A DNA stretch of 64,000 nucleotides from Escherichia coli (GTDB lineage: Bacteria; Pseudomonadota; Gammaproteobacteria; Enterobacterales; Enterobacteriaceae), in the NCBI RefSeq assembly GCF_044324875.1, contig NZ_CP172185.1; one strand, given 5' to 3'. This document shows, in pieces, positions 4,711 through 51,117 of the stretch (the stretch's first letter is position 1; each line of letters starts with the position of its first letter). The position numbers and the translations under genes are program-made. The notes under the pieces were generated by a model, which ran no database searches, was not told the origin of the DNA, and worked only from the letters and a program-made list of their open reading frames with translations.

Positions 4711-6912
4711 TCAGAATAATACTGAGTAACTCAGACCAAAGGTGCGGCCCCTGCCTTTGTAGCCGTACAGTGAAGCAGGGCCGTAACCCGGGCTGTAGTA
4801 CAGTGGCGCACGCTGCCCCCAGACAGTGGTGTAGTCACGGTCGAAGAGGTTTTCAATGCTGAAGCTGAGTGTACCCACCGGAAGCTGATAACTGCCAAGC
4901 AAATCGACGATGGTATAGCCATCGACCTTGTAGCCCTGCGCGTCGCTCACGTCAAAGGAGGTGGTGCTCTGCACTCGCAGACTCCACGGGTCCGGTGCCC
5001 AGCCAATGTAGGCTGTCGCTTTTGATGGGCTTGCTGTCTTCACATCGTATTTCTGCCAGGTACCGTTCACTTTCGACTCAGTTTTCAGCACGTTGAAGTT
5101 CACTCCGGTACTCCAGTCAGTATCAGGAATCAGGTAGTCCACCGCACCTTCCACGCCGTAAATACGGCGTTTGTCGTCCACCACACTGATGGTCAGATCT
5201 TTATTCGCCACCACGCTCTTATCAGAAATCGAATAGTAGGCCGCGATTTGGGTGCGCAGATTATTGCCAGTAAAGCGCCAGCCCAGCTCATAAGAATCGA
5301 CTTTCACGCCTTCCAGCTTGCTGTCGCTGACGTTCACACTCTTTGTTAGAGGAAGATGGCCGTTCACTGCAGCACCATAGATGCCGCGACCATAGTATTT
5401 ACCCGGGTCCGGCAGCTCCACGCCCTGGGAGAAGTTGAGCCATGCCTGCTGGCGTTCGGTGATATGCATCAGCAGACCAGCGTTGAACAGGAAGTTGTCG
5501 TAATCGACTGAGCCGCCAGGAATGGCGTCGGCGGATGTAGCCTTCCCGGCGGCAATCTGCCGTTGCTGCGCGTAGCCGATGAAATCATCAATCTTGTTTT
5601 CAGTGTACTGATAGCGTACGCCACCGTTGAGGGTAAAGAGATTATTGATGTCATAGCCTGATTGCAGGAAGACCGCCAGGTTGGTGATGTCATACGACGG
5701 ATAGCGCCCGGTGGTGTAAATCTTCTTGTTGTTCAGCCCTCCGGAAGCGCTTGCTTGAGCCAGGTCGAAGAACATCTGGTTGGAGGTAAAGCGCTCATGA
5801 TCAGCATCCAGCCCCCAGGTGATTTGCCAGCCGTCCATCGGTTTGCTGTTCAGAGTCAGTTTCATGCCGTACTGGTCGGTGTCCTGCTGTGACGAAGAGA
5901 AAGCCGTCACCTGTTTGTTCGCATTTACCGTCGGGAACGGGTAGAATCGCAACGACTCATCGCGGTAGTAAACCTGACCGACCAGCTCCTGTCCCAGGAA
6001 AGCGCTGTCAGAGTACTGCAGGCTGATCAAATGCCGCTCAGTGCCGGGAATACGGTCGGAATTCAGCCCGTTACTGACGAAGGGCGTGCTGGTCCCTCTG
6101 ATGGCAGAGAAGCCTTTCCCGAGATTAAGCCCGTAATCGTCGTCGCCCTGGCTTTTATAGTACTGTGTGATCAACTGAAGCTGCCGGGATTCATCGATGT
6201 TCAACGTTCCAGTTCCCATGATGTCCAGCCGATCGGAGTACTGCAGGCCGGTCTGGGTGTTATCAAGCAGGGTGGCATCGCCGTTACCGTCAAACCAGCC
6301 GCCAAATTTCTGATATGCCACGGAAAGACGTCCGGAGATATGCTCATTTCCGCCGGAGACAGCTCCGGCAATGCGTTCATCGTGATCTTTACTGCTGCTA
6401 AAGCCACTTTTGGTGCCAGCCTCAAACTCCTTCATGGTTTCCGGCTGGCCTTTTTTGCTCACGATGTTGATCAGGCCACCGGTACTGCCGCCGCCATACA
6501 GGGACGTCGCACCGGAGATCACTTCAATATGGTCGATATTAAAAGGATCTATAGAGTCCAGTTGTCGGCTGTCGGTACGTGAAGAGTTGAGACGCACGCC
6601 GTCAACCAGCACGACCAGCGGGCGGCCACGCACATTCATACCGTAGTTGGTGCGGCTCCGGCTGCTGACGTCAAGGCCAGGGATCAGCTGAGCCAGTGCG
6701 TCCTTAAGCTCTTTGCCGCCCTGAATCTGCTGTTCCAGTTCGGCGTTTTCGATAACCCAGGTGGTTTGTGCCATCTCCGCTACGGTGCGATTGCTGCGGT
6801 TGGCAGACACCACGAACGTTTCATCATCGGTTTGTTGAGCGACTGCTGGCGCCATCATGGTAAGAAGCAGTGGGTTGAGAGCCCAAAGCGTATACTTTTT
6901 GCTTATCATCAT
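4711..6912 (-). CDS. iutA: IutA, TonB-dependent ferric aerobactin receptor
   Basis: 733 aa with signal peptide, TonB box region, plug and beta-barrel ending in aromatic residue (…SYSVLF); sits immediately downstream of iucD. Confidence 0.93.
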   Translation of the reverse strand: MMISKKYTLWALNPLLLTMMAPAVAQQTDDETFVVSANRSNRTVAEMAQTTWVIENAELEQQIQGGKELKDALAQLIPGLDVSSRSRTNYGMNVRGRPLVVLVDGVRLNSSRTDSRQLDSIDPFNIDHIEVISGATSLYGGGSTGGLINIVSKKGQPETMKEFEAGTKSGFSSSKDHDERIAGAVSGGNEHISGRLSVAYQKFGGWFDGNGDATLLDNTQTGLQYSDRLDIMGTGTLNIDESRQLQLITQYYKSQGDDDYGLNLGKGFSAIRGTSTPFVSNGLNSDRIPGTERHLISLQYSDSAFLGQELVGQVYYRDESLRFYPFPTVNANKQVTAFSSSQQDTDQYGMKLTLNSKPMDGWQITWGLDADHERFTSNQMFFDLAQASASGGLNNKKIYTTGRYPSYDITNLAVFLQSGYDINNLFTLNGGVRYQYTENKIDDFIGYAQQRQIAAGKATSADAIPGGSVDYDNFLFNAGLLMHITERQQAWLNFSQGVELPDPGKYYGRGIYGAAVNGHLPLTKSVNVSDSKLEGVKVDSYELGWRFTGNNLRTQIAAYYSISDKSVVANKDLTISVVDDKRRIYGVEGAVDYLIPDTDWSTGVNFNVLKTESKVNGTWQKYDVKTASPSKATAYIGWAPDPWSLRVQSTTSFDVSDAQGYKVDGYTIVDLLGSYQLPVGTLSFSIENLFDRDYTTVWGQRAPLYYSPGYGPASLYGYKGRGRTFGLSYSVLF

Positions 6913-6993
6913 TATTCCTCCACACGGGCGGAAAAAATCAGCCCAAAGATGCTGTGTAGCGAGTTAAAGAAGCAGCCTCCGGCTGCGTTTTCC

Positions 6994-8271
6994 CTAGGTG
7001 CCGCTGCGCCACTGAATCAGGGCGGGCGGCATACTGAGATCGAATAAATCACGTCCCATTACACGATTAAGAATACGTGCAGATCTCCATGCCATCAGGC
7101 TGAGCTGAGGTTCGGCGATGCCATGGGTTTGCATACTGGCGTTGACCACGAAGATGTTGTTCTCTTTCGGGCCACTCCATTCCAGAGTGAAGTCATCACG
7201 CACTTTAAAGGTGTTCTTATCGTGCATGGTGATCAGCGGCATCAGTGAGGGAAGTATTTGTGGCAACGCAGAACGGTAACCTGTGGCGAAAATCACCACA
7301 TCACTTTCCAGGCTCTCCCTGCCCTGATCCAGATGATGCTCCATCAGCAACTTCCAGCCAGGACCACTACTTTCCAGAGTTGTTACCGAGCGGCTAGGTA
7401 GCAGACGGATATTTCTTGGTTTTCTCAGAACTTCAAAACGGTGGTACAACTCACGATAAATGGTCAGTAAAGAATCGGCAGTGATGCCATCCGATGTCAT
7501 TTTCTGCTCATCCAGTAACTGATGGCGAATATCTTCCTCCAGTCCGGAGAAGCCTGAAATATATTCAGGTGTAAAATACTCATCAGCAAAAGCAGCCTCA
7601 TCCAGTGCGTTAAAATTATTCCGCCGGGAGATCCAGTTTATTTCCGCCGCTTCTCCCCATTCCCCGCGTAATGCATTAAGGAACAGGTCTGCACCACTCT
7701 GTCCTCCACCAACCACGGTTACCCGTTTTTCACTAAGGTCCGGCCGACGAAGATTCATTTCACTGGCATGGAAACAGGATTGTGTCATATGCTTCACACA
7801 GGGTGGTAAATAAGGTTGTTTTCCTGTACCAAGGCAGATATTGTGGGCAAAATATTCTCCCCGGCTGGTTTGCACCAGAAACAATCGACGTTTTTTATCG
7901 AAATCAATGTTTTCAACGGTATGACTGAAATACAGGTTATTCATATCTTCAGCAGCCCAGCGGAGGTAGTCAGAAAACTCTTCACGGGATACTGTACGTA
8001 GTCTGCTTGTAAGGAAGCGATAGAACTTTTTGTGCTTCACCAGATAGTTAACAAAGCTGTAGGGATTTGTAGGTGCAACAGCACTGACCAGATCTTTCAG
8101 AAAGACGGTCTGCATATGACAATCCGGTACCAGCATACCCGGATGCCAGGAAAAATGAGGATGTTCATCAAAGAAGAGACAGTCCAGTTCTTCGATCTGA
8201 TGTGACAACGCAGCAATGCTGAGATTAAATGGCCCTGTCCCTACACCAATAAAATCGACACTTTTTTTCAT
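6994..8271 (-). CDS. iucD: IucD, L-lysine N6-monooxygenase
   Basis: 425 aa; FAD GxGxxG motif near N-terminus (FIGVGTGPFNLS) and second dinucleotide motif (VVGGGQSGAD); position in operon. Confidence 0.93.
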   Translation of the reverse strand: MKKSVDFIGVGTGPFNLSIAALSHQIEELDCLFFDEHPHFSWHPGMLVPDCHMQTVFLKDLVSAVAPTNPYSFVNYLVKHKKFYRFLTSRLRTVSREEFSDYLRWAAEDMNNLYFSHTVENIDFDKKRRLFLVQTSRGEYFAHNICLGTGKQPYLPPCVKHMTQSCFHASEMNLRRPDLSEKRVTVVGGGQSGADLFLNALRGEWGEAAEINWISRRNNFNALDEAAFADEYFTPEYISGFSGLEEDIRHQLLDEQKMTSDGITADSLLTIYRELYHRFEVLRKPRNIRLLPSRSVTTLESSGPGWKLLMEHHLDQGRESLESDVVIFATGYRSALPQILPSLMPLITMHDKNTFKVRDDFTLEWSGPKENNIFVVNASMQTHGIAEPQLSLMAWRSARILNRVMGRDLFDLSMPPALIQWRSGT

Positions 8272-10010
8272 GATTCATATTCCTGAGTTACCAGCCACAG
8301 CGGATTTTGCAGATCCTCAAGGTAATTCGGCAGCATGCGGCTGCCGCCATCCAGATCAGGCCAGGTCAGTTTTACCGGGTTCAGCACCACGCGAATGATT
8401 TGTGGCCTGAAAAGTGAGAAAAGCGCAAAACGCTCTGACATTTGTGGATGTTTTTTCATGTAATCACTCAACACTGCTGCCAGCAGTTGATAAAATCGCC
8501 GTTCAGGTACGCCAAGACGAACCATCAGTGGCGAAATAAAACGCAGTACTGTCACGAAGTGACCCGTCTGCAAATCATGGATTAAGTAGTCCGCACTCAG
8601 GCGGGATGTAACATCACGAACCTCCTGAGGCAAAGAGTCCATTTCGGGGAACTCTTCTTTCACCAGCCGCATATCGCCCTGGAAGTCTTTCAGCAGAACA
8701 CGCTGTGGAACCCCCTTTTTCATGGCGAGCGTTATATTTTGTCCATGTGCAATAAGCGCGACACCGTAGCGGCAAAGCAGGTGATACAGAGGAACCACGA
8801 CCACCCGGAACAGTTGCGTAAGCCAGGTTTCAGCGTCCAGCCCGGAGCGGTCTATATATGCGCCTGCCAGCGGCTGATCGTTTTCGTCGCACTCCATCAG
8901 TGTTGCCATCAGAACCGGACTTTCATCCGGTTTCAGCCAGCGGCACGGATTCTCCCGCCAGATAACACCAAGCATTTCCTGGTAGCGATAGGGAGCCCGG
9001 GCAAGCGCGGCATAGCCTTCATGGGAGACATAGCCTGCAGCCGGTTCACCAAGGATCACTGCACCGCTTTGCACCAGGGTAGCGTCGGTCGCAAAAACCT
9101 GTTGTAGCCAGCGTGAAGCCAGTGGTCCGGCAGCGATGTATCTGCCAGGAATCCCCCGGTAGCATGAGGTGTTGTAGATGGTCAGCGGCAGCTTGATATC
9201 CAGCCCACCCCGGCGACTGGCGTTGGTCAGGGTACGCAGCGACTGCTGGGCGAGCCACTGGTCGCCAAACTCGCCGAGAGACACCATCCTGCCTTCGGCA
9301 AAATCAGCGATGAAGTCGGTGGCGATTTTTTGCTGCCACTGCCACGGATGTACAGGCAGCGGCAGCCAGTTATGATCCAGTCCGTTTTCCTGCCAGACCT
9401 GACTGAAGCGGGCAAACTCCTGCGGATCCATTGCGGCCGTCAACAACTGATGAATATCCATCTCGTTATCACAGCGCCAGATCATATGTTCACGTTTTAC
9501 CGCCAGCCAGTGCAGTCTAAAGGTGTTGGCATACTCTGGCGCATATCGTTCCAGCGCCTCTTTACCCCAGCCACGGCGACCTTTATTAAAAACGAATTTA
9601 GGATGACCGCTCAGCAGGCATTGCAGGCGGTCGGCACTAAGATTAATCAGGTCACTGGCGCTCAGCCCGCGACGGGCTTTCAGCAGTTGCAGGTCGCCCA
9701 GCAGCGTGGAATACAAATCCTGCATATGCTCAGCAACGGTTGCATCGCTCATTGACAGTACCTGCTTTAGCTGCATCAGCAGCGTCTGAGCCAGTACTGG
9801 CTCGTCCGCGCAGCGCAGAGTTTGAGCATCAATCCAGAGCCAGCCCCAGATACCACGTTCAGCGATGAAGCGCCATTGTGCTCCCGGCAGGTTAATGCAG
9901 TAGCGGTCATCGCCCTGAGATTCCGCGTGGAAAACCTGCTCATACTCCAGCTCAGACAACATTTTTGCCACCAAGCGGCGGTTGACCAAATCCCAGTCTT
10001 TGTGATTCAT
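8268..10010 (-). CDS. iucC: IucC, aerobactin synthase (IucA/IucC family)
   Basis: 580 aa NRPS-independent siderophore synthetase; 4-bp overlap with iucD. Confidence 0.93.
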   Translation of the reverse strand: MNHKDWDLVNRRLVAKMLSELEYEQVFHAESQGDDRYCINLPGAQWRFIAERGIWGWLWIDAQTLRCADEPVLAQTLLMQLKQVLSMSDATVAEHMQDLYSTLLGDLQLLKARRGLSASDLINLSADRLQCLLSGHPKFVFNKGRRGWGKEALERYAPEYANTFRLHWLAVKREHMIWRCDNEMDIHQLLTAAMDPQEFARFSQVWQENGLDHNWLPLPVHPWQWQQKIATDFIADFAEGRMVSLGEFGDQWLAQQSLRTLTNASRRGGLDIKLPLTIYNTSCYRGIPGRYIAAGPLASRWLQQVFATDATLVQSGAVILGEPAAGYVSHEGYAALARAPYRYQEMLGVIWRENPCRWLKPDESPVLMATLMECDENDQPLAGAYIDRSGLDAETWLTQLFRVVVVPLYHLLCRYGVALIAHGQNITLAMKKGVPQRVLLKDFQGDMRLVKEEFPEMDSLPQEVRDVTSRLSADYLIHDLQTGHFVTVLRFISPLMVRLGVPERRFYQLLAAVLSDYMKKHPQMSERFALFSLFRPQIIRVVLNPVKLTWPDLDGGSRMLPNYLEDLQNPLWLVTQEYES

Positions 10011-10957
10011 TACAGACCGACCTCCGTGAAGAAGTGATGACGATCCGCCATCACCATGCGCGAGCGTTTATGTGGGAAGTCGAACTCTTTAATTGTCCGG
10101 TATCCCGCAGGCTCAAGATGGCGGAACAGGCGCTGGTTATCGGTGCGTGGCTCCAGTACTGTGCGCTGCGTACGTGGCTCATTCAGCAGCAGGTAATGTG
10201 TCACCCCGCGCAGCCAGCTTTGCACATAGTGGGCTCCGCGCCATTGCTGTTCACCAACCAGCAGATGCAGGCCACGGTCAAAGGGCTGCCACGAATAGTG
10301 GCGACCAATGCGGTCTTCCGCCGCCCAGTAGATTTCGAAATAACTGAACGGCCGATCGTCGAAACAACCAATCAGCGGGAATGCATGTTTACTGGTGAGC
10401 TGGCGTTCCAGATAGGCGATCTGTACCTCCAGTGAGCCACTTTGCTCCCAGAAATACTCAACGCGCGGATCGTTCATCCAGCGAGTGAAACGTTCTGCAT
10501 CAGAAACGGGATCGGCAATGCGGAAACTCAGCATCCTGCGAATGCGTGGATCGTAACGACGATAAACTTCACCCTGCGGACGGGGGGGGCGCTGCGGGAA
10601 ATAAATCTCACGCTCTGCATCAAAAACCATTTCACCGGAGGCCCGGTTTGCCGGAGAACTCAGCCATAACGGTAACTGCCAGAAAGCGGAACGATGGATA
10701 ATGTCGCTTTGTACCTGTCCGAAAAGCGTCAGCGCCTGTGGCTCCTCACACCATTCGGACCAGGGAAGAACCACTGCTGAAAGTTGTGGTGCGGCGATAA
10801 ATATCTGATCCAGCGCGTCGCACAGCCATCCTGTTGGCAGCTCCCCGGGCCAGTGCAACACCGCGCTATTGTCCAGCCCCCAGCCAAGATTCAGAGGCTT
10901 GTCGAGTTTTTCACAGCGCAGTCCATATCCGCTGTGAACAATGTTTGCCCCAGACAT
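10010..10957 (-). CDS. iucB: IucB, N6-hydroxylysine O-acetyltransferase
   Basis: 315 aa acetyltransferase between iucA and iucC. Confidence 0.92.
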   Translation of the reverse strand: MSGANIVHSGYGLRCEKLDKPLNLGWGLDNSAVLHWPGELPTGWLCDALDQIFIAAPQLSAVVLPWSEWCEEPQALTLFGQVQSDIIHRSAFWQLPLWLSSPANRASGEMVFDAEREIYFPQRPPRPQGEVYRRYDPRIRRMLSFRIADPVSDAERFTRWMNDPRVEYFWEQSGSLEVQIAYLERQLTSKHAFPLIGCFDDRPFSYFEIYWAAEDRIGRHYSWQPFDRGLHLLVGEQQWRGAHYVQSWLRGVTHYLLLNEPRTQRTVLEPRTDNQRLFRHLEPAGYRTIKEFDFPHKRSRMVMADRHHFFTEVGL

Positions 10958-45407: not shown

Positions 45408-47319
45408 TCACTCCTCCGGACAGCTTCGCTGCCAGTTCTTTAAGGGTTGGCCGGGTCGTCTCTTCTTCCCGGGATTTTGCCAGTACAGCCAGATCAAGCT
45501 GCCAGCGTTGCACGGACACACGTAATGCCGCGTAGGCATACACCAGGCAGTCCAGCGCTTCGTTACGCCGCTTTTTGTTATCCCACAGCAGACGCATCTT
45601 TCCTTTTTCCCACTTCTCCACAAGCTCTTCCGCGACCAGTTGCTGCGCCTCTGTCTGCGAAAAAATCTCCGGATCATCAGGAAAACGGATAGCATACGAC
45701 GTGGATTCATCCGCAGGCGTGGGAGCGGCTTTCATACGGGCATAGAGAATTTCTTTTGCGGTGTCTGTCCCCACTTCACACAGATACACGCCCCGCTGAT
45801 TGCGGGTTTTTGGCATGGTGATCACCGGCTTGCCATAGACAGATGCGCCTTTTACCGGCAGCACCCGGAAAACACCGTGTTTTTTTGACCTCTGATAAAC
45901 GATTTCTCCATCGATCCCCCCGATGTCCCAGCAGACACGGGAAATGGTCATTTCGGTTCCGTCTGCATGGCAGTATTTTTTGTTGATCGCTGCATCCACA
46001 CGTAACAGCGTCTCTTCCTCATCGGGACGCCCCATAATAATGATTTTATCCACCAGAAAGGCTTCCTCTCCCGGAGCCCATCCCCAGACATACATCTCAA
46101 AACGGTTTCGCTGCGAGTCAATGCCCGCCGTCAGATAAACCACCCGGGCAGGCACCGCCGCCGTGTAACGCACAACCTTATCCATCAGTACCTGGTGATC
46201 GAGTTTTTCGCCCACGGCCTCTTCCCAGGTCTCGCCCAGCGTGGTGTTCACAAAGGTTTTCAGGCCGTTGGGATCTTTCAGTGCATCCAGCCAGTCATAG
46301 ACTATCTGTACCCAGGTGGTGAACGGACTGTACGCCGTCCAGATATGGAAAGTGATGGAGCGCGGCGGCGGAATTTCATCACCCCGGGCGCTGAAAAACA
46401 TCAGGCCGTCACGGGTCCACATCCCCGTGTTTTCACAGATCCACCGCCCGTTACTCTGGTCAAGCTCAGACTGATGGATCACACAGCCATGATGCTCACA
46501 AAGGTAGAAAACGCTTTCGGGGCTGTCCTTCTCCCATTTAAGGCCAAAAGGCGTGGATTCATCGCCAAATTTCAGATACTGCGCCTCCCCACAGTGCGGG
46601 CAGGGCACATAAAAACGCATGAAATGTGCCGACTCGTTAGCGGCTTTTTCGATCTGGCAGGAGCCTTTGATTTTAGGCGTCGAGCCGCGAATGGATTTTG
46701 GCCATACAGAGCCCTCAATACGCTTATCCCCCAGCAGGGTTGGCGAGCCCTCTTTTTCAACATCAGGTTCAAACGATGAGAGTTCGTCATAGCAGACCAC
46801 GTCCACGGATTTTTCACGGTAGTTTTTTGCTGCCGCACCACCCAGGCACCAGAAGCCCACACCCGATGAAAAGCGTTTCAGCGTGAGAGTATTGTCACGA
46901 TGTTTACGCCCCAGCCATGGAGAAAGGTCTTTCAGACATGACACATCCCGAATCGTCGCCTCCACGTGAGACTTCATAAAATCTTCAGCGGCAGAATCCG
47001 TGGGCTGAAAAAGCAGACTGTTTCGGGATTTATGCTCAATAAAATACCCGACCACCCCCAGCAACATCTTTGTATAACCAATACGGGCAGATTTAATCAG
47101 GTTAACAGTGCGAATCAGATCGTTGCCCATACAGTTCATGATGGCGATCTGGAACGGCAGCGTTTTCCATTCTCCCTCACCATATGAAGATTCTTTAGGC
47201 AGATAATAATTTTGATCAGCCCATTCAACTGCCGTCACCGGCAATGCCCTTATCAGGGGCTGTAATGCTGTTGTGACAGCACTCATCATATTATTCAGTT
47301 GTTGCTCTGATATATTCAT
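45391..47319 (-). CDS. Terminase large subunit (lambda gpA-like)
   Basis: Start refined to MNISEQQL (642 aa); conserved blocks match lambda A. Confidence 0.92.
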   Translation of the reverse strand: MNISEQQLNNMMSAVTTALQPLIRALPVTAVEWADQNYYLPKESSYGEGEWKTLPFQIAIMNCMGNDLIRTVNLIKSARIGYTKMLLGVVGYFIEHKSRNSLLFQPTDSAAEDFMKSHVEATIRDVSCLKDLSPWLGRKHRDNTLTLKRFSSGVGFWCLGGAAAKNYREKSVDVVCYDELSSFEPDVEKEGSPTLLGDKRIEGSVWPKSIRGSTPKIKGSCQIEKAANESAHFMRFYVPCPHCGEAQYLKFGDESTPFGLKWEKDSPESVFYLCEHHGCVIHQSELDQSNGRWICENTGMWTRDGLMFFSARGDEIPPPRSITFHIWTAYSPFTTWVQIVYDWLDALKDPNGLKTFVNTTLGETWEEAVGEKLDHQVLMDKVVRYTAAVPARVVYLTAGIDSQRNRFEMYVWGWAPGEEAFLVDKIIIMGRPDEEETLLRVDAAINKKYCHADGTEMTISRVCWDIGGIDGEIVYQRSKKHGVFRVLPVKGASVYGKPVITMPKTRNQRGVYLCEVGTDTAKEILYARMKAAPTPADESTSYAIRFPDDPEIFSQTEAQQLVAEELVEKWEKGKMRLLWDNKKRRNEALDCLVYAYAALRVSVQRWQLDLAVLAKSREEETTRPTLKELAAKLSGGVNGYSR

Positions 47320-47800
47320 CGAGTAAATCCGGTAATTTATCCCCTGCCCGCGCACACTGATTTGCCCCCTTCGCAATAAGGGTTTTCAGATGGTCAAGAT
47401 GGCGCGGTGTTAAATCAGGAAACTGTCGTTGCATGGATAAAGGGATGGAATCAAGCGTACTGGATAACGCCATTGCCAGCTTGCTGAGGGCAAAAATACA
47501 GAATCCGGTGTCAATAAGTTTTCCTTTTGACACCTCATTTTTTAACTGCTGTGTAACAGCCTGTTCTGCTGTCAGTTCCCATCTGGCAATAAGCAATTTC
47601 TCCTCATAGTCGTCTTCGCTATCGCCATCAGGCACATCGTTTTTACTTCTTCTCAGATACGATATGTAAAAATCACGCCAGGCATCCAGATCCAGTTGCC
47701 CTCGCTTATTCGATATCGGGGCACCCGGCAATTTCTGCAGTCTGCGAAGCTGGCGATCGGTCAGACTCAAATGCCTGGCAACTTCAGTCTGCGTAGCCAC
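47291..47800 (-). CDS. Terminase small subunit (lambda Nu1-like)
   Basis: 169 aa; winged-HTH N-terminus; overlaps the start of A as in lambda. Confidence 0.88.
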   Translation of the reverse strand: MATQTEVARHLSLTDRQLRRLQKLPGAPISNKRGQLDLDAWRDFYISYLRRSKNDVPDGDSEDDYEEKLLIARWELTAEQAVTQQLKNEVSKGKLIDTGFCIFALSKLAMALSSTLDSIPLSMQRQFPDLTPRHLDHLKTLIAKGANQCARAGDKLPDLLDEYIRATTE

Positions 47801-47999
47801 TGTTCACCTCGCAAAAAATCTCCCCTCATGCGTTTTAAACATGCATCTTGCGAGCAACTTTATGCAAACGCACGCATATGTCCGGTTTGTTTGTACATTT
47901 TTTGCACATGTCCGGTTCGCAGAAAGCATGTTTTTATATTTTTCATATAGTTAACTTGCAGAGAAACCGGACATGGATCCCGGAAAATTTTCATAAATA

Positions 48000-48035
48000 G
48001 CGAAAACGCGCGAGGTCGACGCCCCGTAACGGGCC
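48000..48035 (-). other. cos site (cosN cohesive-end sequence GGGCGTCGACCT at 48013..48024, with cosB-like flank)
   Basis: Minus strand reads ttacggggcgtcgacctcgcgcgttttcgctatttatgaaaattttccgg, near-identical to the lambda cos region; 224 bp upstream of Nu1. Confidence 0.8.
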
Positions 48036-48174
48036 GGATTGCCGGAAAGGACCCGAAAAAACGAGAATAATTATCACTTACAGCAAGAATCGAATCTGAT
48101 CTATTCTGATGCTTGCTATTATGTGCCGGCACAAGTGCGTCGTTTACCGTCATTTCACACAGAGGCATCATCAA

Positions 48175-48426
48175 ATGAAAATCAGAAATATTCTCGCTAT
48201 CTCCCTTGCAACATCATCCTTCAGTTGCCTGGCATTTAAACCCTCGCCCAATGTGCTACCAGGACCAACGAATCAACTAACTGCGGTAGAAAGTAAAATT
48301 ATCGGACATTTTTATGCCCCACACAGTGCATTACCCGGAACAACCATCACAGGGACATGTGACGCCTCCCCCATTCCGGGATGCACCTGTCCGTTTTGTA
48401 CTATGCTGCGTAGCCAAAACCGATAA
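48175..48426 (+). CDS. Small secreted Cys-rich protein (signal peptide MKIRNILAISLATSSFSCLA)
   Basis: ATG with GAGG-type RBS; hydrophobic leader; opposite strand to the phage late operon. Confidence 0.4.
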   Translation: MKIRNILAISLATSSFSCLAFKPSPNVLPGPTNQLTAVESKIIGHFYAPHSALPGTTITGTCDASPIPGCTCPFCTMLRSQNR

Positions 48427-48790
48427 CATCCGCATTTACCTGGTATTCCATGATGAGTTCACGCAGCGACTGATAGAGGAAGGAAAGATGGTTAGCAAAA
48501 GCAAAGGCGCATTGCCGCCGCATGCTGCAGGCATTGCAACAGACGAGAGCAGATATTTTTGACCAGTTGGAAAACTGCCAGCATACTTTGCCCGAGCATA
48601 TCGCCATCTCATCGGAAACCAGTGCAACTCTTATTCATCGGGTTACACCAGAGAAAAAGAAGAAATGAACAGTGAGGCGTTGTGTGGCATACAACGCCTT
48701 CTTCCATCATTTCTCGTCAGCCATGACAAAAATATAACCGCTGGCTCTTTCATTTTTCTCCTGCTTCCAGCCCCTCTCTACCTGGAAGCA

Positions 48791-49117
48791 TCAGGGACGT
48801 GATGGCGTAAAGATAAATTGTCTCTTCACTCCCTGACGGGGACTATTCTTTTCAAATCTCCATTTCGCCATGGCCTTCACCACTTCATCACGAAACAAAT
48901 TATGAGGCTCTGAGCGGAGAAAAACGATCCGTGTCACAGTCCCGTCAGCACCAATATCGAACTTAACCTCAACCAGCCCCTTGATATAATTTGCTGCAGC
49001 ATATTCCGGATATCGTGGATACACCGTCACTAATTGCCGGGGCTCATCAGCTTTTTGCTGCGAGCATCCCACTGCCAGGGCAGATAACAGAAAAAGTAGT
49101 GAAAGGCGTCTTTTCAT
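48791..49117 (-). CDS. Lipoprotein with TonB C-terminal-like domain
   Basis: Signal peptide plus Cys (MKRRLSLLFLLSALAVGC); C-terminal 75 aa align motif-by-motif with the E. coli TonB C-terminal domain. Confidence 0.6.
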   Translation of the reverse strand: MKRRLSLLFLLSALAVGCSQQKADEPRQLVTVYPRYPEYAAANYIKGLVEVKFDIGADGTVTRIVFLRSEPHNLFRDEVVKAMAKWRFEKNSPRQGVKRQFIFTPSRP

Positions 49118-49548
49118 TTTTATTCCTACGGGTCTTATTCTGACAATATATCCTGTGTTCCAGACTGCCACATCACCACATCCTGTGCCATTATCTGACT
49201 CACATTACATACATCGCATCAGGATACAGTAGTAGCACTTTCTGTAATACAGCTTCCGGTTTCTTCCACCATCGCACCGGACAGGCGACTATGAGGGATA
49301 AACCCGCGAATCATTAACGCGGTAAAAACCCGGTGTACATCGTTTTTGATTATTCCCGCACACTCGCGCAGAAGGAGTTCCCCGTCGGGCTACGGTTTCT
49401 GTTCATACGGGAATACGGCGACTATATAGCGAATGATGTGTCAGGCTTGAATACCTTTATCCGTTAAAAGGGATATCAATTAAGTTATCCCGTACAGGGT
49501 ATAAGCCATTATCAAAGCCACTCTGTAGCGAATGGCTTTTGTAATGGA

Positions 49549-49998
49549 CTATTTAATTAGTGATGCTGCGTATTCGATTAGATATAACTTAGGTGCCAGC
49601 CAGATTTTTAACCATGTCATATTGGTTACTGCACAAATAATAAAAATCCCCCACATAGTCAAAACTCCAACCAATGGCACGATAAGAAGATTAATATCAC
49701 CTTTGCTATCCCAAACCATTGTCGGCCTGTATTTGGGATTTCCCTTCTCCCATGAATATCCTTCATCACCGATTTTACCTGTCTCAACTCTTTGGCACTG
49801 CTTCTTCATAAACCAGAAAACCAGAGGGATTGTTGAAATGGCTATTAATGTTTTAATCAGGCTATCAACCATATTCCATACCAGCAACTGATGAACAACA
49901 TCCGGAATCTGAGCCTGACTGAATGCAATGGCGGAATCAATTCCATCGCTGGCCTTCTTCAATAAATCAACAAGAATTTTATTTGCTTCTTCTTGCAT
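49549..49998 (-). CDS. Small inner-membrane protein encoded in AT-rich DNA (start at internal Met MQEEANKIL)
   Basis: Two or three predicted TM helices; sharp drop in GC at about 50000; upstream part of the 209-aa ORF is a different, GC-rich reading context. Confidence 0.45.
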   Translation of the reverse strand: MQEEANKILVDLLKKASDGIDSAIAFSQAQIPDVVHQLLVWNMVDSLIKTLIAISTIPLVFWFMKKQCQRVETGKIGDEGYSWEKGNPKYRPTMVWDSKGDINLLIVPLVGVLTMWGIFIICAVTNMTWLKIWLAPKLYLIEYAASLIK

Positions 49999-50174
49999 GT
50001 TTATATCCTGTAAGTTGTAAACCGGTTCGAACAAATAAGTTACCAAGAGAGACAAAGATACCGAGCAACCACGGTCGCACACGATGTTTATCGCAGTAAC
50101 CAGAACTGTCTGTGATTGTACCTGCGCATCCACGCTTACGGCAGGCACGTGGGATTCGTGATGGCATAAATACC

Positions 50175-50375
50175 TCACACCCTGTTCAGTTGAATGACGG
50201 GCTGATTCTCGATATGTTCTGCTGTCAGTCTGAAAGTCACAGTGACTGTTGGTGGCTCGCCTCCGCGTGACTCTGTCCTGGCGGAAAGCTGCCCCTCCAG
50301 TAACTCACCATTAACTGCAATCCCATACCCTGCGAAATGTTTACCGCGATAAAGTTTTGCCAGTTGGTAATTCAT
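50175..50375 (-). CDS. Hypothetical small protein
   Basis: 66 aa ORF translationally coupled (ATGA overlap) to the upstream small ORF. Confidence 0.4.
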   Translation of the reverse strand: MNYQLAKLYRGKHFAGYGIAVNGELLEGQLSARTESRGGEPPTVTVTFRLTAEHIENQPVIQLNRV

Positions 50376-50629
50376 TTGCCTGCATCCTCCAGCGACAACC
50401 CAATTCGCCCATGAAGCAATGTGGCCGATACAATCCCGGCATTACACTCAACGATTATATCTTCATCCGTGGCATCCACTTCATATATTCGTGAATAACA
50501 TTCCGTGCATTTACCACTGAATGTACCTTCAGCCAGAACACGACCACGCTGTAAAATCCGGAACGGGATTCTTCCATTAAAGAGCTTTGCGGTTACCAGT
50601 AATTTCTTCATACATTCTCCTGATAACAA
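50372..50629 (-). CDS. Hypothetical small protein with CxxC pair
   Basis: 85 aa ORF starting 6 bp after Rz stop. Confidence 0.4.
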   Translation of the reverse strand: MLSGECMKKLLVTAKLFNGRIPFRILQRGRVLAEGTFSGKCTECYSRIYEVDATDEDIIVECNAGIVSATLLHGRIGLSLEDAGK

Positions 50630-50634
50630 AAAGG

Positions 50635-51117
50635 CTACTTAATGCACTGAGTGCGGATATACTCCTGTGCCCCTTCCAGTTGCTTCTGCATCGTCATCAA
50701 CCGTTCTCTGAGGGTGAAATAATCCCGTTCAGCGGTGTCTGCCAGTCGGGGGCTGGTTGCATTATCCACGCTGGTGGGTCCGGTGGCTTCACGCACGGCT
50801 TCGGAGCAACTGGCATTGACCCGCAGGCGCTTACGGCCAGCGGCAACATCAGCGCGCAGAGTTTCATTTTCAGCTTTCGCATTGGCTAATTCTCTCGAGT
50901 ACTTTGCATCGAGCGCAGCAACATCACGCTGACGCTGCTGCATGTCAGTAATGGTGGCGGTCGCCTGCTTCAGTTCACTGACTTTTTTATCACGCTGTTC
51001 TTTGTAGGCTATGGCGTTATCACGGTAATGATTGACCGCCAACGACAGGCAGACGATGATGCAGATAACCAGAGCATAAATAATCGCGGCGACTCTGCTC
51101 ACTGATCTATCCCCCAA
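50635..51117 (-). CDS. Rz i-spanin
   Basis: 160 aa with N-terminal TM and coiled-coil; near-identical blocks to lambda Rz. Confidence 0.92.
50697..50882 (-). CDS. Rz1 o-spanin lipoprotein, embedded in Rz in +1 frame
   Basis: 61 aa with lipobox and proline-rich core (…[30 protein letters not shown]). Confidence 0.9.

What the first reader, a model, noticed from the sequence alone, without database searches (positions are those of the whole stretch)
48175..49998. Envelope-targeted cargo between Rz and cos: lipoprotein with TonB C-terminal-like domain, AT-rich membrane protein, small secreted Cys-rich protein
This is the position where lambda carries bor. Three genes here encode exported or membrane proteins with no virion function. 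The lipoprotein (48791..49117) aligns motif-by-motif with the TonB C-terminal domain, which normally contacts the TonB box of outer-membrane receptors. A periplasmic decoy of that domain could block TonB-dependent uptake of phages, colicins or siderophores, which would be a superinfection-exclusion mechanism I do not know to be described. The neighbouring membrane protein sits in DNA of much lower GC than the phage backbone.
Basis: partly seen in the sequence, partly recalled or inferred. Interest (0 to 1): 0.72.

Follow-up and report, generated by a model that had tools for sequence, protein, structure and literature searches.

The report
Phage-borne TonB look-alike lipoprotein
A crippled lambda-like prophage in E. 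coli carries three small envelope-protein genes between its lysis genes and its DNA-packaging site; the main one is an outer-membrane-anchored copy of the receptor-gripping end of the iron-uptake protein TonB, which probably interferes with TonB-dependent entry routes, and although it is common and already annotated its function has never been tested.

Summary
All three genes are real and under purifying selection.

- **TonB_C lipoprotein, 48791-49117(-).** It has a lipobox signal peptide, a 7-9 residue tether and a TonB C-terminal domain (Pfam E=3e-13; 40% identical and 0.6-1.0 Å rmsd to E. coli TonB CTD). It lacks TonB's membrane anchor and proline-rich spacer.
- **How common it is.** It is in phage 21 and in 1615 of 5426 complete E. 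coli genomes, annotated "TonB family protein". It was reported as a lysogen-expressed moron ("TonB fragment") in LF82. I found no functional study.
- **Family.** It belongs to a clade of small TonB_C lipoproteins, not to recent tonB fragments.
- **Decoy idea.** Plausible but untested. Engineered periplasmic TonB fragments are dominant negative. AlphaFold docked the FhuA TonB box as a strand and did not dock a scrambled control. However, TonB's receptor-contact residues Q160, R166 and V226 are replaced.
- **Cys-rich gene, 48175-48426(+).** It is real but usually unannotated. A Fur box beside cosQ precedes it, and published CFT073 ChIP-exo and Δfur data hit that exact site.
- **Membrane protein.** It is a separately mobile, AT-rich phage gene of unknown function.

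The three genes are not one cassette.

The parts
48013..48024 (-). cosN cohesive-end site (AGGTCGACGCCC on the + strand; one mismatch to lambda/21)
   Evidence: Read from the sequence. The phage 21 record ends exactly at 48025 in the alignment. Compared with the lambda right end.
48048..48054 (-). cosQ (GGGTCCT on the late strand)
   Evidence: Matches the annotated cosQ of phage 21 (locus 24-30) and the lambda right end.
48062..48076 (.). Fur-box-type 7-1-7 palindrome CGAGAATAATTATCA, about 100 bp upstream of the Cys-rich gene
   Evidence: With at most 2 mismatches it is one of only two such loci in the 64-kb window; the other is the aerobactin promoter. Expected by chance: 0.14. The diverged homolog L016 has a perfect match, and so does lambda. 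The CFT073 Fur ChIP-exo peak 1424699-1424711 falls on the orthologous palindrome (PMC10164565).
48175..48426 (+). Small exported Cys-rich protein (83 aa), antisense to the late operon. It has a signal peptide with an invariant lipobox-like SFSC and a C-terminal motif GTCDASPxPGC[TS]CPFCTMLRS.
   Evidence: Homologs at 58-77% identity in three genera. pS 0.76-0.81 against pN 0.17-0.23. Lipobox rule met. No Pfam, PHROG, NCBIfam or PADLOC family. Not annotated by PGAP or in the phage 21 record.
48522..48668 (+). 48-aa ORF downstream of the Cys-rich gene; a possible second gene of the leftward unit; reality uncertain
   Evidence: Annotated by PGAP. phrog_4843. The three window-versus-phage-21 differences inside it fall at codon positions 1 or 2, so there is no sign of constraint.
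48675..48699 (.). 9-bp GC-rich hairpin between the convergent + and - units, followed by a U-rich tract on the minus strand; terminator-like
   Evidence: Seen in the sequence and in the fold. The simple terminator scan did not call it.
48791..49117 (-). TonB_C lipoprotein (108 aa): signal peptide 1-17, lipid-modified Cys18, tether 19-25, TonB C-terminal domain 26-104
49137..49145 (-). Candidate extended -10 element TGTCAGAAT, 20 nt upstream of the ATG (TGTTAGAAT in allele 2); Shine-Dalgarno AGGA at 49124-49127
   Evidence: It is a conserved block in otherwise diverged upstream DNA of the two alleles (alignment A1; sequence). This is inference only: the promoter scan found no more sites than chance. 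Autonomous transcription of the ortholog in LF82 lysogens supports an own promoter.
49230..49560 (.). Conserved lambdoid non-coding-looking element upstream of the TonB_C gene
   Evidence: Found in 111 phage records, including lambda-like and 434 right ends. It is conserved between the two TonB_C allele contexts. No Rfam match. A 16-bp indel against phage 21 breaks the short ORFs in it.
49549..49998 (-). AT-rich two-segment membrane protein (149 aa, phrog_3054), function unknown
50066..50167 (-). Truncated HNH/DUF8602 pseudogene, apparently cut by insertion of the AT-rich membrane-protein gene
   Evidence: PGAP annotation of a 99.7% identical locus; ORF translation.
50635..51117 (-). Rz i-spanin with embedded Rz1 (50697-50882), the upstream boundary of the moron region
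   Evidence: ORFs; PGAP 'lysis protein'; synteny with phage 21 spanins.

Best explanation
**What it is.** The gene at 48791-49117(-) is a lysogenic-conversion gene (a moron). [quoted passage not shown]

**Proposed mechanism.** There it displays a TonB C-terminal domain on a 7-9 residue tether, level with the periplasmic face of TonB-dependent transporters. It has no inner-membrane anchor and no link to ExbB/ExbD, so it cannot transduce energy. I propose that it binds TonB-box strands by beta-augmentation. The strands could belong to transporters such as FhuA, FepA, Cir and BtuB, and/or to incoming colicins that carry their own TonB box. By doing so it competes with the cell's TonB and damps TonB-dependent entry of phages, colicins and microcins into the lysogen, at some cost to siderophore and B12 uptake.

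**Shown.**
- Domain identity and fold.
- Lipobox and a non-Asp residue at +2.
- Purifying selection.
- Autonomous transcription of a 96%-identical ortholog in lysogens.

**Inferred.**
- Outer-membrane location.
- TonB-box binding.
- Competition with TonB.
- The protective phenotype.

**The neighbours are separate morons.**
- The Cys-rich gene encodes a small exported protein, probably a lipoprotein. It is very likely repressed by Fur and switched on in iron starvation.
- The AT-rich gene encodes a phage membrane protein of unknown role that was inserted here secondarily.
For: **Domain and fold.**
- Pfam TonB_C E 3e-13.
- The best solved relatives are E. coli and Salmonella TonB CTD, aligned without gaps at 40% identity.
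- AF2 domain pLDDT >90, superposing on 1U07, 2GSK_B and 2GRX_C at 0.6-1.0 Å.
- The YP motif and the aromatic residues equivalent to F180, F202, W213, Y215 and F230 are kept.

**Architecture.**
- The lipobox, with S/T/A at +2, is conserved across the E. coli alleles, a Klebsiella phage homolog (41% identity) and many ~110-aa relatives.
- The tether is uniformly short.

**Selection and spread.**
- dN/dS 0.12 with dS ~1.5.
- Present in 1615 of 5426 complete E. coli genomes in two alleles.
- Found in four different phage backbones, always between the lysis cassette and terminase.

**Expression.** The LF82 Perceval ortholog is transcribed 8-fold above prophage background. Its level is constant across conditions, while the flanking Rz and terminase genes stay at background (PMC9928086).

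**Precedent.**
- Periplasmic TonB fragments 33-239, 103-239 and 122-239 inhibit TonB-system activity, and ompT(ss)-TonB(33-239) abolishes ferrichrome transport (bioRxiv 10.1101/2020.01.05.895219).
- Phage outer-membrane lipoproteins Llp and Cor already act on the periplasmic face of FhuA.

**In-silico docking.** I fused the domain through a GS linker to FhuA residues 1-21.
- With the real peptide, AF2 made a strand of exactly DTITVT (pLDDT 62-69, pTM 0.68).
- With a scrambled peptide of the same composition, the peptide stayed at pLDDT 44-49 with only a short 3-residue strand at its C-terminal end (pTM 0.62).
Against: - **No experiment** links this protein to any TonB-dependent phenotype. Ten full-text searches found none.
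- **Changed contact residues.** The lipoprotein clade systematically differs from TonB at positions TonB uses toward receptors: Q160 becomes Y/L/H, R166 becomes Y/H/V, and V226 in strand beta3 becomes an invariant K/R. The last residues (KINGTTEIQ) are missing. The partner or its specificity may therefore differ.
- **Weak docking evidence.** The AF2 signal has modest confidence (pLDDT <70). I could not inspect which strand the peptide pairs with. AF2 may simply recall TonB-receptor complexes.
- **Fitness argument.** A strong general block of iron and B12 uptake would be costly, yet the gene sits in about 30% of E. coli genomes and is expressed constitutively.
- **Non-phage relatives.** Small TonB_C lipoproteins of the same clade also sit in ordinary chromosomal neighbourhoods, which suggests a cellular role that need not be exclusion.
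- **From memory.** Very short isolated TonB fragments (77-86 residues) were reported not to inhibit FhuA in vivo.
Confidence: 0.45

Rival explanations
1. The domain targets the energy transducer rather than the receptors. It would heterodimerise with the C-terminal domain of the cell's own TonB, or bind ExbD's periplasmic domain. That would trap TonB at the outer membrane and poison the Ton cycle.
For: - TonB CTD fragments crystallise as dimers; 1U07 is among the best structural matches.
- The paper read notes that the inhibition by periplasmic TonB fragments was attributed to receptor blocking before the ExbD-TonB periplasmic interaction was known.
- The changed Q160/R166/V226 positions fit a partner other than a receptor TonB box.
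Against: - A 7-9 residue outer-membrane tether places the domain far from ExbD.
- The AF2 fusion test showed a TonB-box-specific strand.
- The phenotypes would largely coincide with those of the main model, so the sequence cannot separate the two.
Confidence: 0.12
2. It is an envelope or virulence moron unrelated to TonB traffic. It would be an outer-membrane lipoprotein in the manner of Bor/Iss, using the TonB_C fold merely as a scaffold, for example to bind peptidoglycan or a host factor.
For: - It sits next to bor/iss in phage 21, Perceval and CFT073.
- Chromosomal cousins lie in housekeeping neighbourhoods.
- TonB's receptor-contact residues are not conserved.
Against: - The only function known for TonB_C domains is binding of TonB-box-type strands.
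- There is no match to Lambda_Bor or any other family.
- Unlike Bor, it is not induced in macrophage conditions.
Confidence: 0.2
3. It is an accessory of lysis, an o-spanin-like or spanin-regulating lipoprotein, as its PHROG label 'Rz-like spanin' and its constant place after the spanin genes would suggest.
For: - phrog_1267 is labelled Rz-like spanin.
- The position directly after the lysis cassette is conserved in four phage lineages.
Against: - The prophage has its own Rz/Rz1.
- In the window, pseudogenes and other cargo separate the protein from the lysis genes.
- It has no C-terminal transmembrane segment and no Rz1-type sequence.
- It is transcribed in lysogens while Rz is silent.
- The slot between lysis and packaging genes is the classical moron slot (bor in lambda).
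Confidence: 0.05
4. It is a decaying fragment of a captured tonB gene with no function, as the record labels 'TonB fragment', 'partial tonB-like' and 'truncated TonB-like' imply.
For: These labels appear in several records. The protein lacks the N-terminal two thirds of TonB.
Against: - dN/dS 0.12.
- A conserved, purpose-built lipoprotein signal peptide replaces the TonB N-terminus in homologs down to 35-45% identity.
- The family forms its own clade apart from enterobacterial TonB.
- It is transcribed.
Confidence: 0.02
5. The three genes work together as one envelope cassette.
For: - The TonB_C gene and the Cys-rich gene travel together, at 95-99% identity, in 1223 genomes and 7 phage records.
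- Both touch on iron biology: a TonB domain and a Fur box.
Against: - Each gene also occurs without the others. TonB_C allele 2 and the Klebsiella homolog lack the Cys-rich gene. The Cys-rich gene occurs without TonB_C in L016/L017 and in Salmonella.
- In other phages the membrane-protein gene sits after gene N, and it also occurs in virulent phages.
- The full trio occurs in only 15 of 5426 genomes.
- The TonB_C and Cys-rich genes are convergent, with a hairpin between them.
Confidence: 0.08

Closest known systems
C-terminal domain of E. coli TonB (PF03544; PDB 1U07, 1XX3, 2GSK chain B, 2GRX chain C)
   Same: Same fold (rmsd 0.6-1.0 Å), 40% identity without gaps. The YP motif, the aromatic core and the edge strand beta3 that pairs with TonB boxes are all present.
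   Different: - No N-terminal transmembrane anchor and no proline-rich spacer, so no coupling to ExbB/ExbD.
- A lipoprotein signal peptide takes their place.
- Q160, R166 and V226 equivalents are replaced, and the last ~5 residues are missing.
- It branches in a separate clade.
Engineered periplasmic TonB fragments (signal sequence fused to TonB 33-239, 103-239 or 122-239), which are dominant negative
   Same: A TonB C-terminal domain delivered to the periplasm without energy coupling. These fragments inhibit TonB-system activity and ferrichrome transport.
   Different: - Those are laboratory constructs: soluble, longer and overexpressed.
- This is a natural phage gene. It is outer-membrane tethered, consists of the domain only, and is expressed at a modest constitutive level.
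Superinfection-exclusion lipoproteins Llp (T5) and Cor (phi80, N15, HK022, mEp167)
   Same: Small phage-encoded outer-membrane lipoproteins that act from the periplasmic side on a TonB-dependent transporter (FhuA) to block phage and colicin entry.
   Different: - Unrelated fold and sequence.
- Llp and Cor are specific for FhuA and act allosterically.
- A TonB mimic could in principle address any TonB box.
- cor sits near the tail genes, whereas this gene sits between lysis and packaging genes.
Bor/Iss lipoprotein of lambda-like phages
   Same: Same genome slot, outer-membrane lipoprotein, expressed in lysogens, immediate neighbour in phage 21, Perceval and CFT073.
   Different: - No sequence or domain relationship.
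- Opposite orientation.
- Bor is strongly induced in macrophage conditions, while the TonB_C gene is not.

Membership tests
TonB_C domain family (PF03544 / TIGR01352) | Significant match to the family profile | tested here: met
   Pfam i-E 3.2e-13 over model positions 2-70 of 79. TIGR01352 scored 48.6 bits against a cutoff of 27.1.
TonB_C domain family (PF03544 / TIGR01352) | The alpha/beta fold of the TonB C-terminal domain | tested here: met
   AF2 pLDDT >90 over the domain. Foldseek probability 1.00, rmsd 0.6-1.0 Å, TM-score (normalised to the target) 0.84-0.90 to E. coli TonB CTD structures.
TonB_C domain family (PF03544 / TIGR01352) | Binding of a TonB-box strand by beta-augmentation | tested here: inconclusive
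   In the AF2 fusion, the FhuA TonB box DTITVT became a strand at pLDDT 62-69, against 44-49 for a scrambled peptide. The pairing partner could not be inspected. Binding assays are needed.
TonB energy transducer (TonB proper) | N-terminal transmembrane anchor that couples to ExbB/ExbD | tested here: not met
   Residues 1-18 are a cleavable lipoprotein signal peptide (AVGC|S). NCBIfam TonB equivalog models scored 46-67 bits against cutoffs of 265-448.
TonB energy transducer (TonB proper) | Proline-rich periplasm-spanning spacer | tested here: not met
   Only 7-9 residues lie between Cys18 and the start of the domain.
Bacterial lipoproteins sorted to the outer membrane | Lipobox with an invariant Cys after a hydrophobic signal peptide; no Asp at +2 (the Lol rule, established knowledge) | tested here: met
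   A PROSITE-type rule matched in the window protein, in all E. coli alleles, in the Klebsiella phage homolog and in many ~110-aa relatives. The +2 residue is S, T or A. Lipidation and localisation themselves cannot be tested here.
Cor/Llp FhuA-blocking exclusion lipoproteins | Llp/Cor fold or sequence family | tested here: not met
   The fold is TonB_C. No other PHROG, Pfam or PADLOC family matched.
Cor/Llp FhuA-blocking exclusion lipoproteins | Inactivation of a TonB-dependent receptor and exclusion of phages that use it | not testable with these tools
   Needs plating and uptake assays.
Spanins (PHROG label of phrog_1267) | o-spanin gene embedded in or next to an i-spanin gene, or a u-spanin with a C-terminal transmembrane segment | tested here: not met
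   Rz/Rz1 lie separately at 50635-51117. The protein has no C-terminal hydrophobic segment and is a TonB_C domain.
Morons (autonomously expressed prophage cargo) | Transcribed in the lysogen independently of the flanking late genes | tested here: met
   Literature data for the 96%-identical ortholog LF82_160: 8-fold above prophage background, with flanking Rz and terminase genes at background (PMC9928086). Not measured in the strain of the window.
Fur regulon (applies to the Cys-rich gene 48175-48426) | Fur box at the promoter, Fur occupancy, and derepression in a fur mutant | tested here: met
   - The motif at 48062-76 has 2 mismatches to the 7-1-7 consensus, with 0.14 expected by chance in the whole window. 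It is a perfect match in a diverged homolog.
- The CFT073 ChIP-exo peak lies on the orthologous palindrome under iron-replete conditions.
- The adjacent leftward unit is up 2.3-2.9 log2 in Δfur.
- Caveat: I could not map the old locus tags of that unit onto the ORF with certainty.

The most novel reading that the evidence does not exclude
The cos-proximal module would be an iron-tuned gate on TonB-dependent transporters. A constitutively made, outer-membrane-tethered TonB mimic occupies TonB boxes. The convergent, Fur-repressed, Cys-rich small lipoprotein is switched on in iron starvation, which is when FhuA, FepA and Cir are up-regulated and the cell is most exposed to TonB-dependent phages, colicins and microcins. 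That protein would act as a second blocker, Llp/Cor-like in logic. Together they would form a previously unrecognised, host-mimicking, broad-spectrum exclusion system carried by about a quarter of E. coli strains.
Probability: 0.15. Interest if true: 0.85.

Novelty: new variant of a known kind. Interest (0 to 1): 0.62.

Why it matters
- **A different exclusion logic.** If the decoy model is right, a large fraction of E. coli, including CFT073, LF82 and O157:H7 (second allele), carries a prophage gene that imitates the host's own energy transducer. It would blunt every TonB-dependent entry route at once. The known receptor-specific blockers Cor and Llp work differently.
- **Practical consequences.** It would affect phage-therapy host range, colicin and microcin ecology in the gut, and susceptibility to siderophore-conjugated antibiotics.
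- **Easy to test.** One 327-bp gene, standard phage, colicin and uptake assays, and classical strains (phage 21 lysogens) already exist.
- **Separate gains.** The work uncovers a conserved but largely unannotated gene next to cos. It also ties a published Fur ChIP-exo peak to a specific palindrome that even lambda carries beside cosQ.

Tried and rejected
- **Rfam** on 47800-50700 at E≤1: nothing. The conserved 330-bp element is therefore not a known RNA.
- **PADLOC** models: no hit for any of six proteins.
- **Family searches.** Pfam, NCBIfam and PHROG gave no informative family for the Cys-rich protein. Pfam and NCBIfam gave none for the membrane protein, which has only a PHROG of unknown function.
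- **Promoter and terminator scan:** no more sites than in shuffles. The candidate -10 element and the terminators rest on conservation and manual reading only.
- **A Fur box upstream of the TonB_C gene itself:** by eye only half-sites (about 10 of 19 matches), and neither Fur-motif scan hit there, so I rejected it. The gene was also absent from the CFT073 Fur regulon tables that I could read.
- **Inferring the prophage's receptor from its tail gene J,** to test self-exclusion: abandoned, because IS21- and IS66-type elements follow and interrupt the tail region.
- **Window versus phage 21 substitutions** were too few to judge the Cys-rich ORF (5 differences). Distant homologs settled it instead.
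- **Minus-strand ORFs annotated in phage 21 and by PGAP** (window 48401-48607) change frame through a 1-bp indel between strains. I do not regard them as established genes.
- **Ten literature searches** found no functional study of the TonB_C lipoprotein. The library lacks most subscription journals, so absence is not proof.
- **Old CFT073 locus tags** C_RS07340 and C_RS26755 could not be mapped to coordinates with the tools at hand.
Full report
**Setting.**
- The window is E. coli chromosome (99.6-99.9% identical to several complete genomes). It carries a lambda-like prophage whose late genes run on the minus strand.
- In late-gene order the layout is:
  - holin, lysozyme, Rz/Rz1 (50635-51117);
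  - two small ORFs and a truncated HNH/DUF8602 pseudogene;
  - a membrane-protein gene (49549-49998);
  - a ~330-bp conserved element;
  - the TonB_C lipoprotein gene (48791-49117);
  - two hairpins;
  - two plus-strand ORFs (48522-48668 and 48175-48426);
  - cosQ (48048-54) and cosN (48013-24);
  - Nu1-type small terminase (47291-47800) and large terminase.
- This is the slot that bor occupies in lambda.
- The prophage is defective. IS21- and IS66-type elements follow and interrupt the tail gene J.

- Pfam TonB_C matches at i-E 3.2e-13, and NCBIfam tonB_Cterm scores above its cutoff.
- The closest solved proteins are the C-terminal domains of E. coli and Salmonella TonB, aligned without gaps over 80 residues.
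- An AlphaFold model has pLDDT >90 across the domain. It superposes on 1U07, 2GSK chain B and 2GRX chain C at 0.6-1.0 Å.
- Residues 1-18 satisfy the lipoprotein rule (AVGC|SQQ). By the established Lol-sorting rule, Ser at +2 means outer-membrane sorting.
- TonB's membrane anchor and proline-rich spacer are absent, and NCBI's TonB equivalog models fall far below cutoff. It is therefore a TonB_C-domain protein, not a TonB.

**It is a functional, widespread gene, not a fragment.**
- Against a 70%-identical allele, dN/dS is 0.12 with dS ~1.5.
- The gene occurs in 1615 of 5426 complete E. coli genomes. The window's allele is in 1224 of them. A second allele is in 391, including O157:H7.
- It also occurs in phage 21, ev017, Perceval, ECOR-derived phages, Stx1a phages and a Klebsiella phage (41% identity).
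- An exhaustive search of 1.8 billion representative proteins found many ~105-135-aa relatives with the same lipobox-plus-TonB_C architecture.
- Phage copies always lie between the lysis cassette and terminase, in four different backbones.
- Other members sit in ordinary chromosomal neighbourhoods and on a plasmid.
- A neighbour-joining tree puts the phage proteins with these small lipoproteins, apart from enterobacterial TonB. Labels such as "TonB fragment" are therefore misnomers.

**Expression.**
- The supplementary table shows log2 values of about 5-6.6 in all conditions. The flanking Rz and terminase genes stay near background, and there is no induction in macrophages, unlike bor.
- A conserved TGTyAGAAT block 20 nt upstream of the start codon is a candidate extended -10 element. 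This is inference only.

**Mechanism.**
- The only known activity of TonB_C domains is to capture TonB-box strands.
- A copy on a 7-9-residue outer-membrane tether, uncoupled from ExbB/ExbD, should compete with TonB.
- That competition works in principle: periplasmic TonB fragments are dominant negative.
- Phage lipoproteins Llp and Cor already attack the periplasmic face of FhuA.
The domain was fused through 20 Gly-Ser residues to FhuA residues 1-21, or to a scrambled peptide of the same composition.
  - With the real peptide, exactly DTITVT became a strand (pLDDT 62-69, pTM 0.68).
  - The scrambled peptide stayed at pLDDT 44-49 with only a short 3-residue strand at its C-terminal end (pTM 0.62).
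  - This is supportive but weak evidence.
- Against a simple mimic, the clade replaces Q160 (with Y/L/H), R166 (with Y/H/V) and V226 (with an invariant K/R), and lacks the C-terminal tail.
- By my recollection of the 2GRX and 2GSK papers, Q160 and R166 contact receptors.
- A total block of iron uptake would also be hard to reconcile with carriage in about 30% of strains.
- I therefore put 0.45 on "TonB-box competitor that damps TonB-dependent entry".
- The remainder goes to TonB/ExbD poisoning, an unrelated envelope role, and a small share to lysis.

**The Cys-rich gene is real and probably iron-regulated.**
- It has no PHROG, Pfam or NCBIfam family, and neither PGAP nor the phage 21 record annotates it.
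- Full-length homologs at 58-77% identity exist in E. coli, Citrobacter and Salmonella. They share an invariant signal-peptide Cys18 (a lipobox-like SFSC) and the C-terminal motif GTCDASPxPGC[TS]CPFCTMLRS.
- Synonymous sites are saturated while pN is 0.17-0.23.
- It occurs beside cos without the TonB_C gene (L016/L017), and in Salmonella in a PPC - Cys-rich - Bor - omptin string.
- About 100 bp upstream, just inside cosQ, lies CGAGAATAATTATCA.
  - With at most 2 mismatches to the Fur 7-1-7 consensus, the only other hit in the window is the aerobactin promoter. The expected number by chance is 0.14.
  - The diverged homolog L016 and lambda itself have perfect versions.
- CFT073 carries the same module.
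  - The published Fur ChIP-exo peak P53 (1424699-1424711, iron-replete) falls on that palindrome (PMC10164565).
  - The adjacent leftward unit rises 2.3-2.9 log2 in Δfur.
  - I could not map the old locus tags to the ORF. However, the intact ORF is the first gene leftward of the peak.

**The membrane protein.**
- It has 149 aa, two hydrophobic segments, GC 0.387 and dN/dS 0.11.
- It belongs to phrog_3054, of unknown function.
- In HF4s and Salmonella phage Oslo it lies right after gene N, and in Oslo it lies beside sieB.
- Full-length relatives at 28-35% identity occur in virulent E. coli, Vibrio, Salmonella and Pseudomonas phages.
- Here it appears to have been inserted into an HNH gene. The full three-gene arrangement exists in only 15 of 5426 genomes.

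**Verdict.**
- The gene is known and annotated, but its function is open and cheaply testable.
- If the decoy model holds, it would be a new variant of phage outer-membrane exclusion lipoproteins.

Noticed in passing
window 48062-48076; L018 (lambda) just inside cosQ; L019 (CFT073) 2494-2509: A Fur-box-type palindrome sits immediately inside cosQ in this prophage, in phage 21/CFT073-type prophages and, as a perfect TGATAATGATTATCA, in lambda itself. In lambda a 64-aa ORF follows it on the strand antisense to the late genes. A published CFT073 Fur ChIP-exo peak lands on it. Iron control of cos-adjacent leftward transcription in lambdoid phages seems not to have been discussed.
   Followed up: partly
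window 48175-48426 (+): A conserved, selected gene for a small exported Cys-rich protein is missing from PGAP annotations and from the curated phage 21 record. Those records instead annotate short ORFs on the opposite strand, and the frames of those ORFs shift between strains.
   Followed up: yes
window 49230-49560: A ~330-bp conserved element between the lysis genes and cos is found in 111 phage records, including lambda-like and 434 right ends. Between the two TonB_C allele contexts it is better conserved than the gene downstream of it. It has no stable ORF and no Rfam match. Function unknown.
   Followed up: partly
window 4711-12745 (-) and 12724-12744: Five consecutive ORFs of 733, 425, 580, 315 and 595 aa match the sizes and order of the aerobactin operon (iutA-iucDCBA). 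A 1-mismatch 19-bp Fur box lies at its start. It served as an internal positive control for the Fur-motif scan. The identity rests on ORF sizes and my own knowledge, not on a search.
   Followed up: no
window 22844-28800: IS66-type (22844-25459) and IS21-type (26382-28800) elements lie directly after the tail gene J and appear to truncate it (J is 28871-32371). The prophage is therefore defective, yet it keeps its envelope cargo intact.
   Followed up: no
phrog_1267 (protein at window 48791-49117): The PHROG family that holds the TonB_C lipoprotein is labelled 'Rz-like spanin'. This is most likely a propagated mis-annotation, caused by its lipoprotein nature and its position after the spanin genes.
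   Followed up: partly
L011 4001-4390; L007 4001-4402; L009 2329-2670: Small lipobox-plus-TonB_C proteins of the same clade also occur outside phages. One is on a plasmid-like contig after stbA/stbB and near Qat defence genes. Others are in chromosomal neighbourhoods (next to ahpCF and a GST gene; next to Usp and an acetyltransferase). No function is known for any of them.
   Followed up: partly
L014 3504-6121 (Salmonella): The Salmonella homolog of the Cys-rich gene lies in a same-strand string of outer-membrane or virulence-type cargo: a PPC-domain protein, the Cys-rich protein, Bor, and an omptin protease.
   Followed up: no
window 49549-49998 versus L012 and L013: In other temperate phages, the AT-rich membrane-protein gene sits immediately after antiterminator gene N, and in Oslo it lies beside sieB. 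That is a classical slot for exclusion genes. Full-length relatives also occur in large virulent phages.
   Followed up: partly
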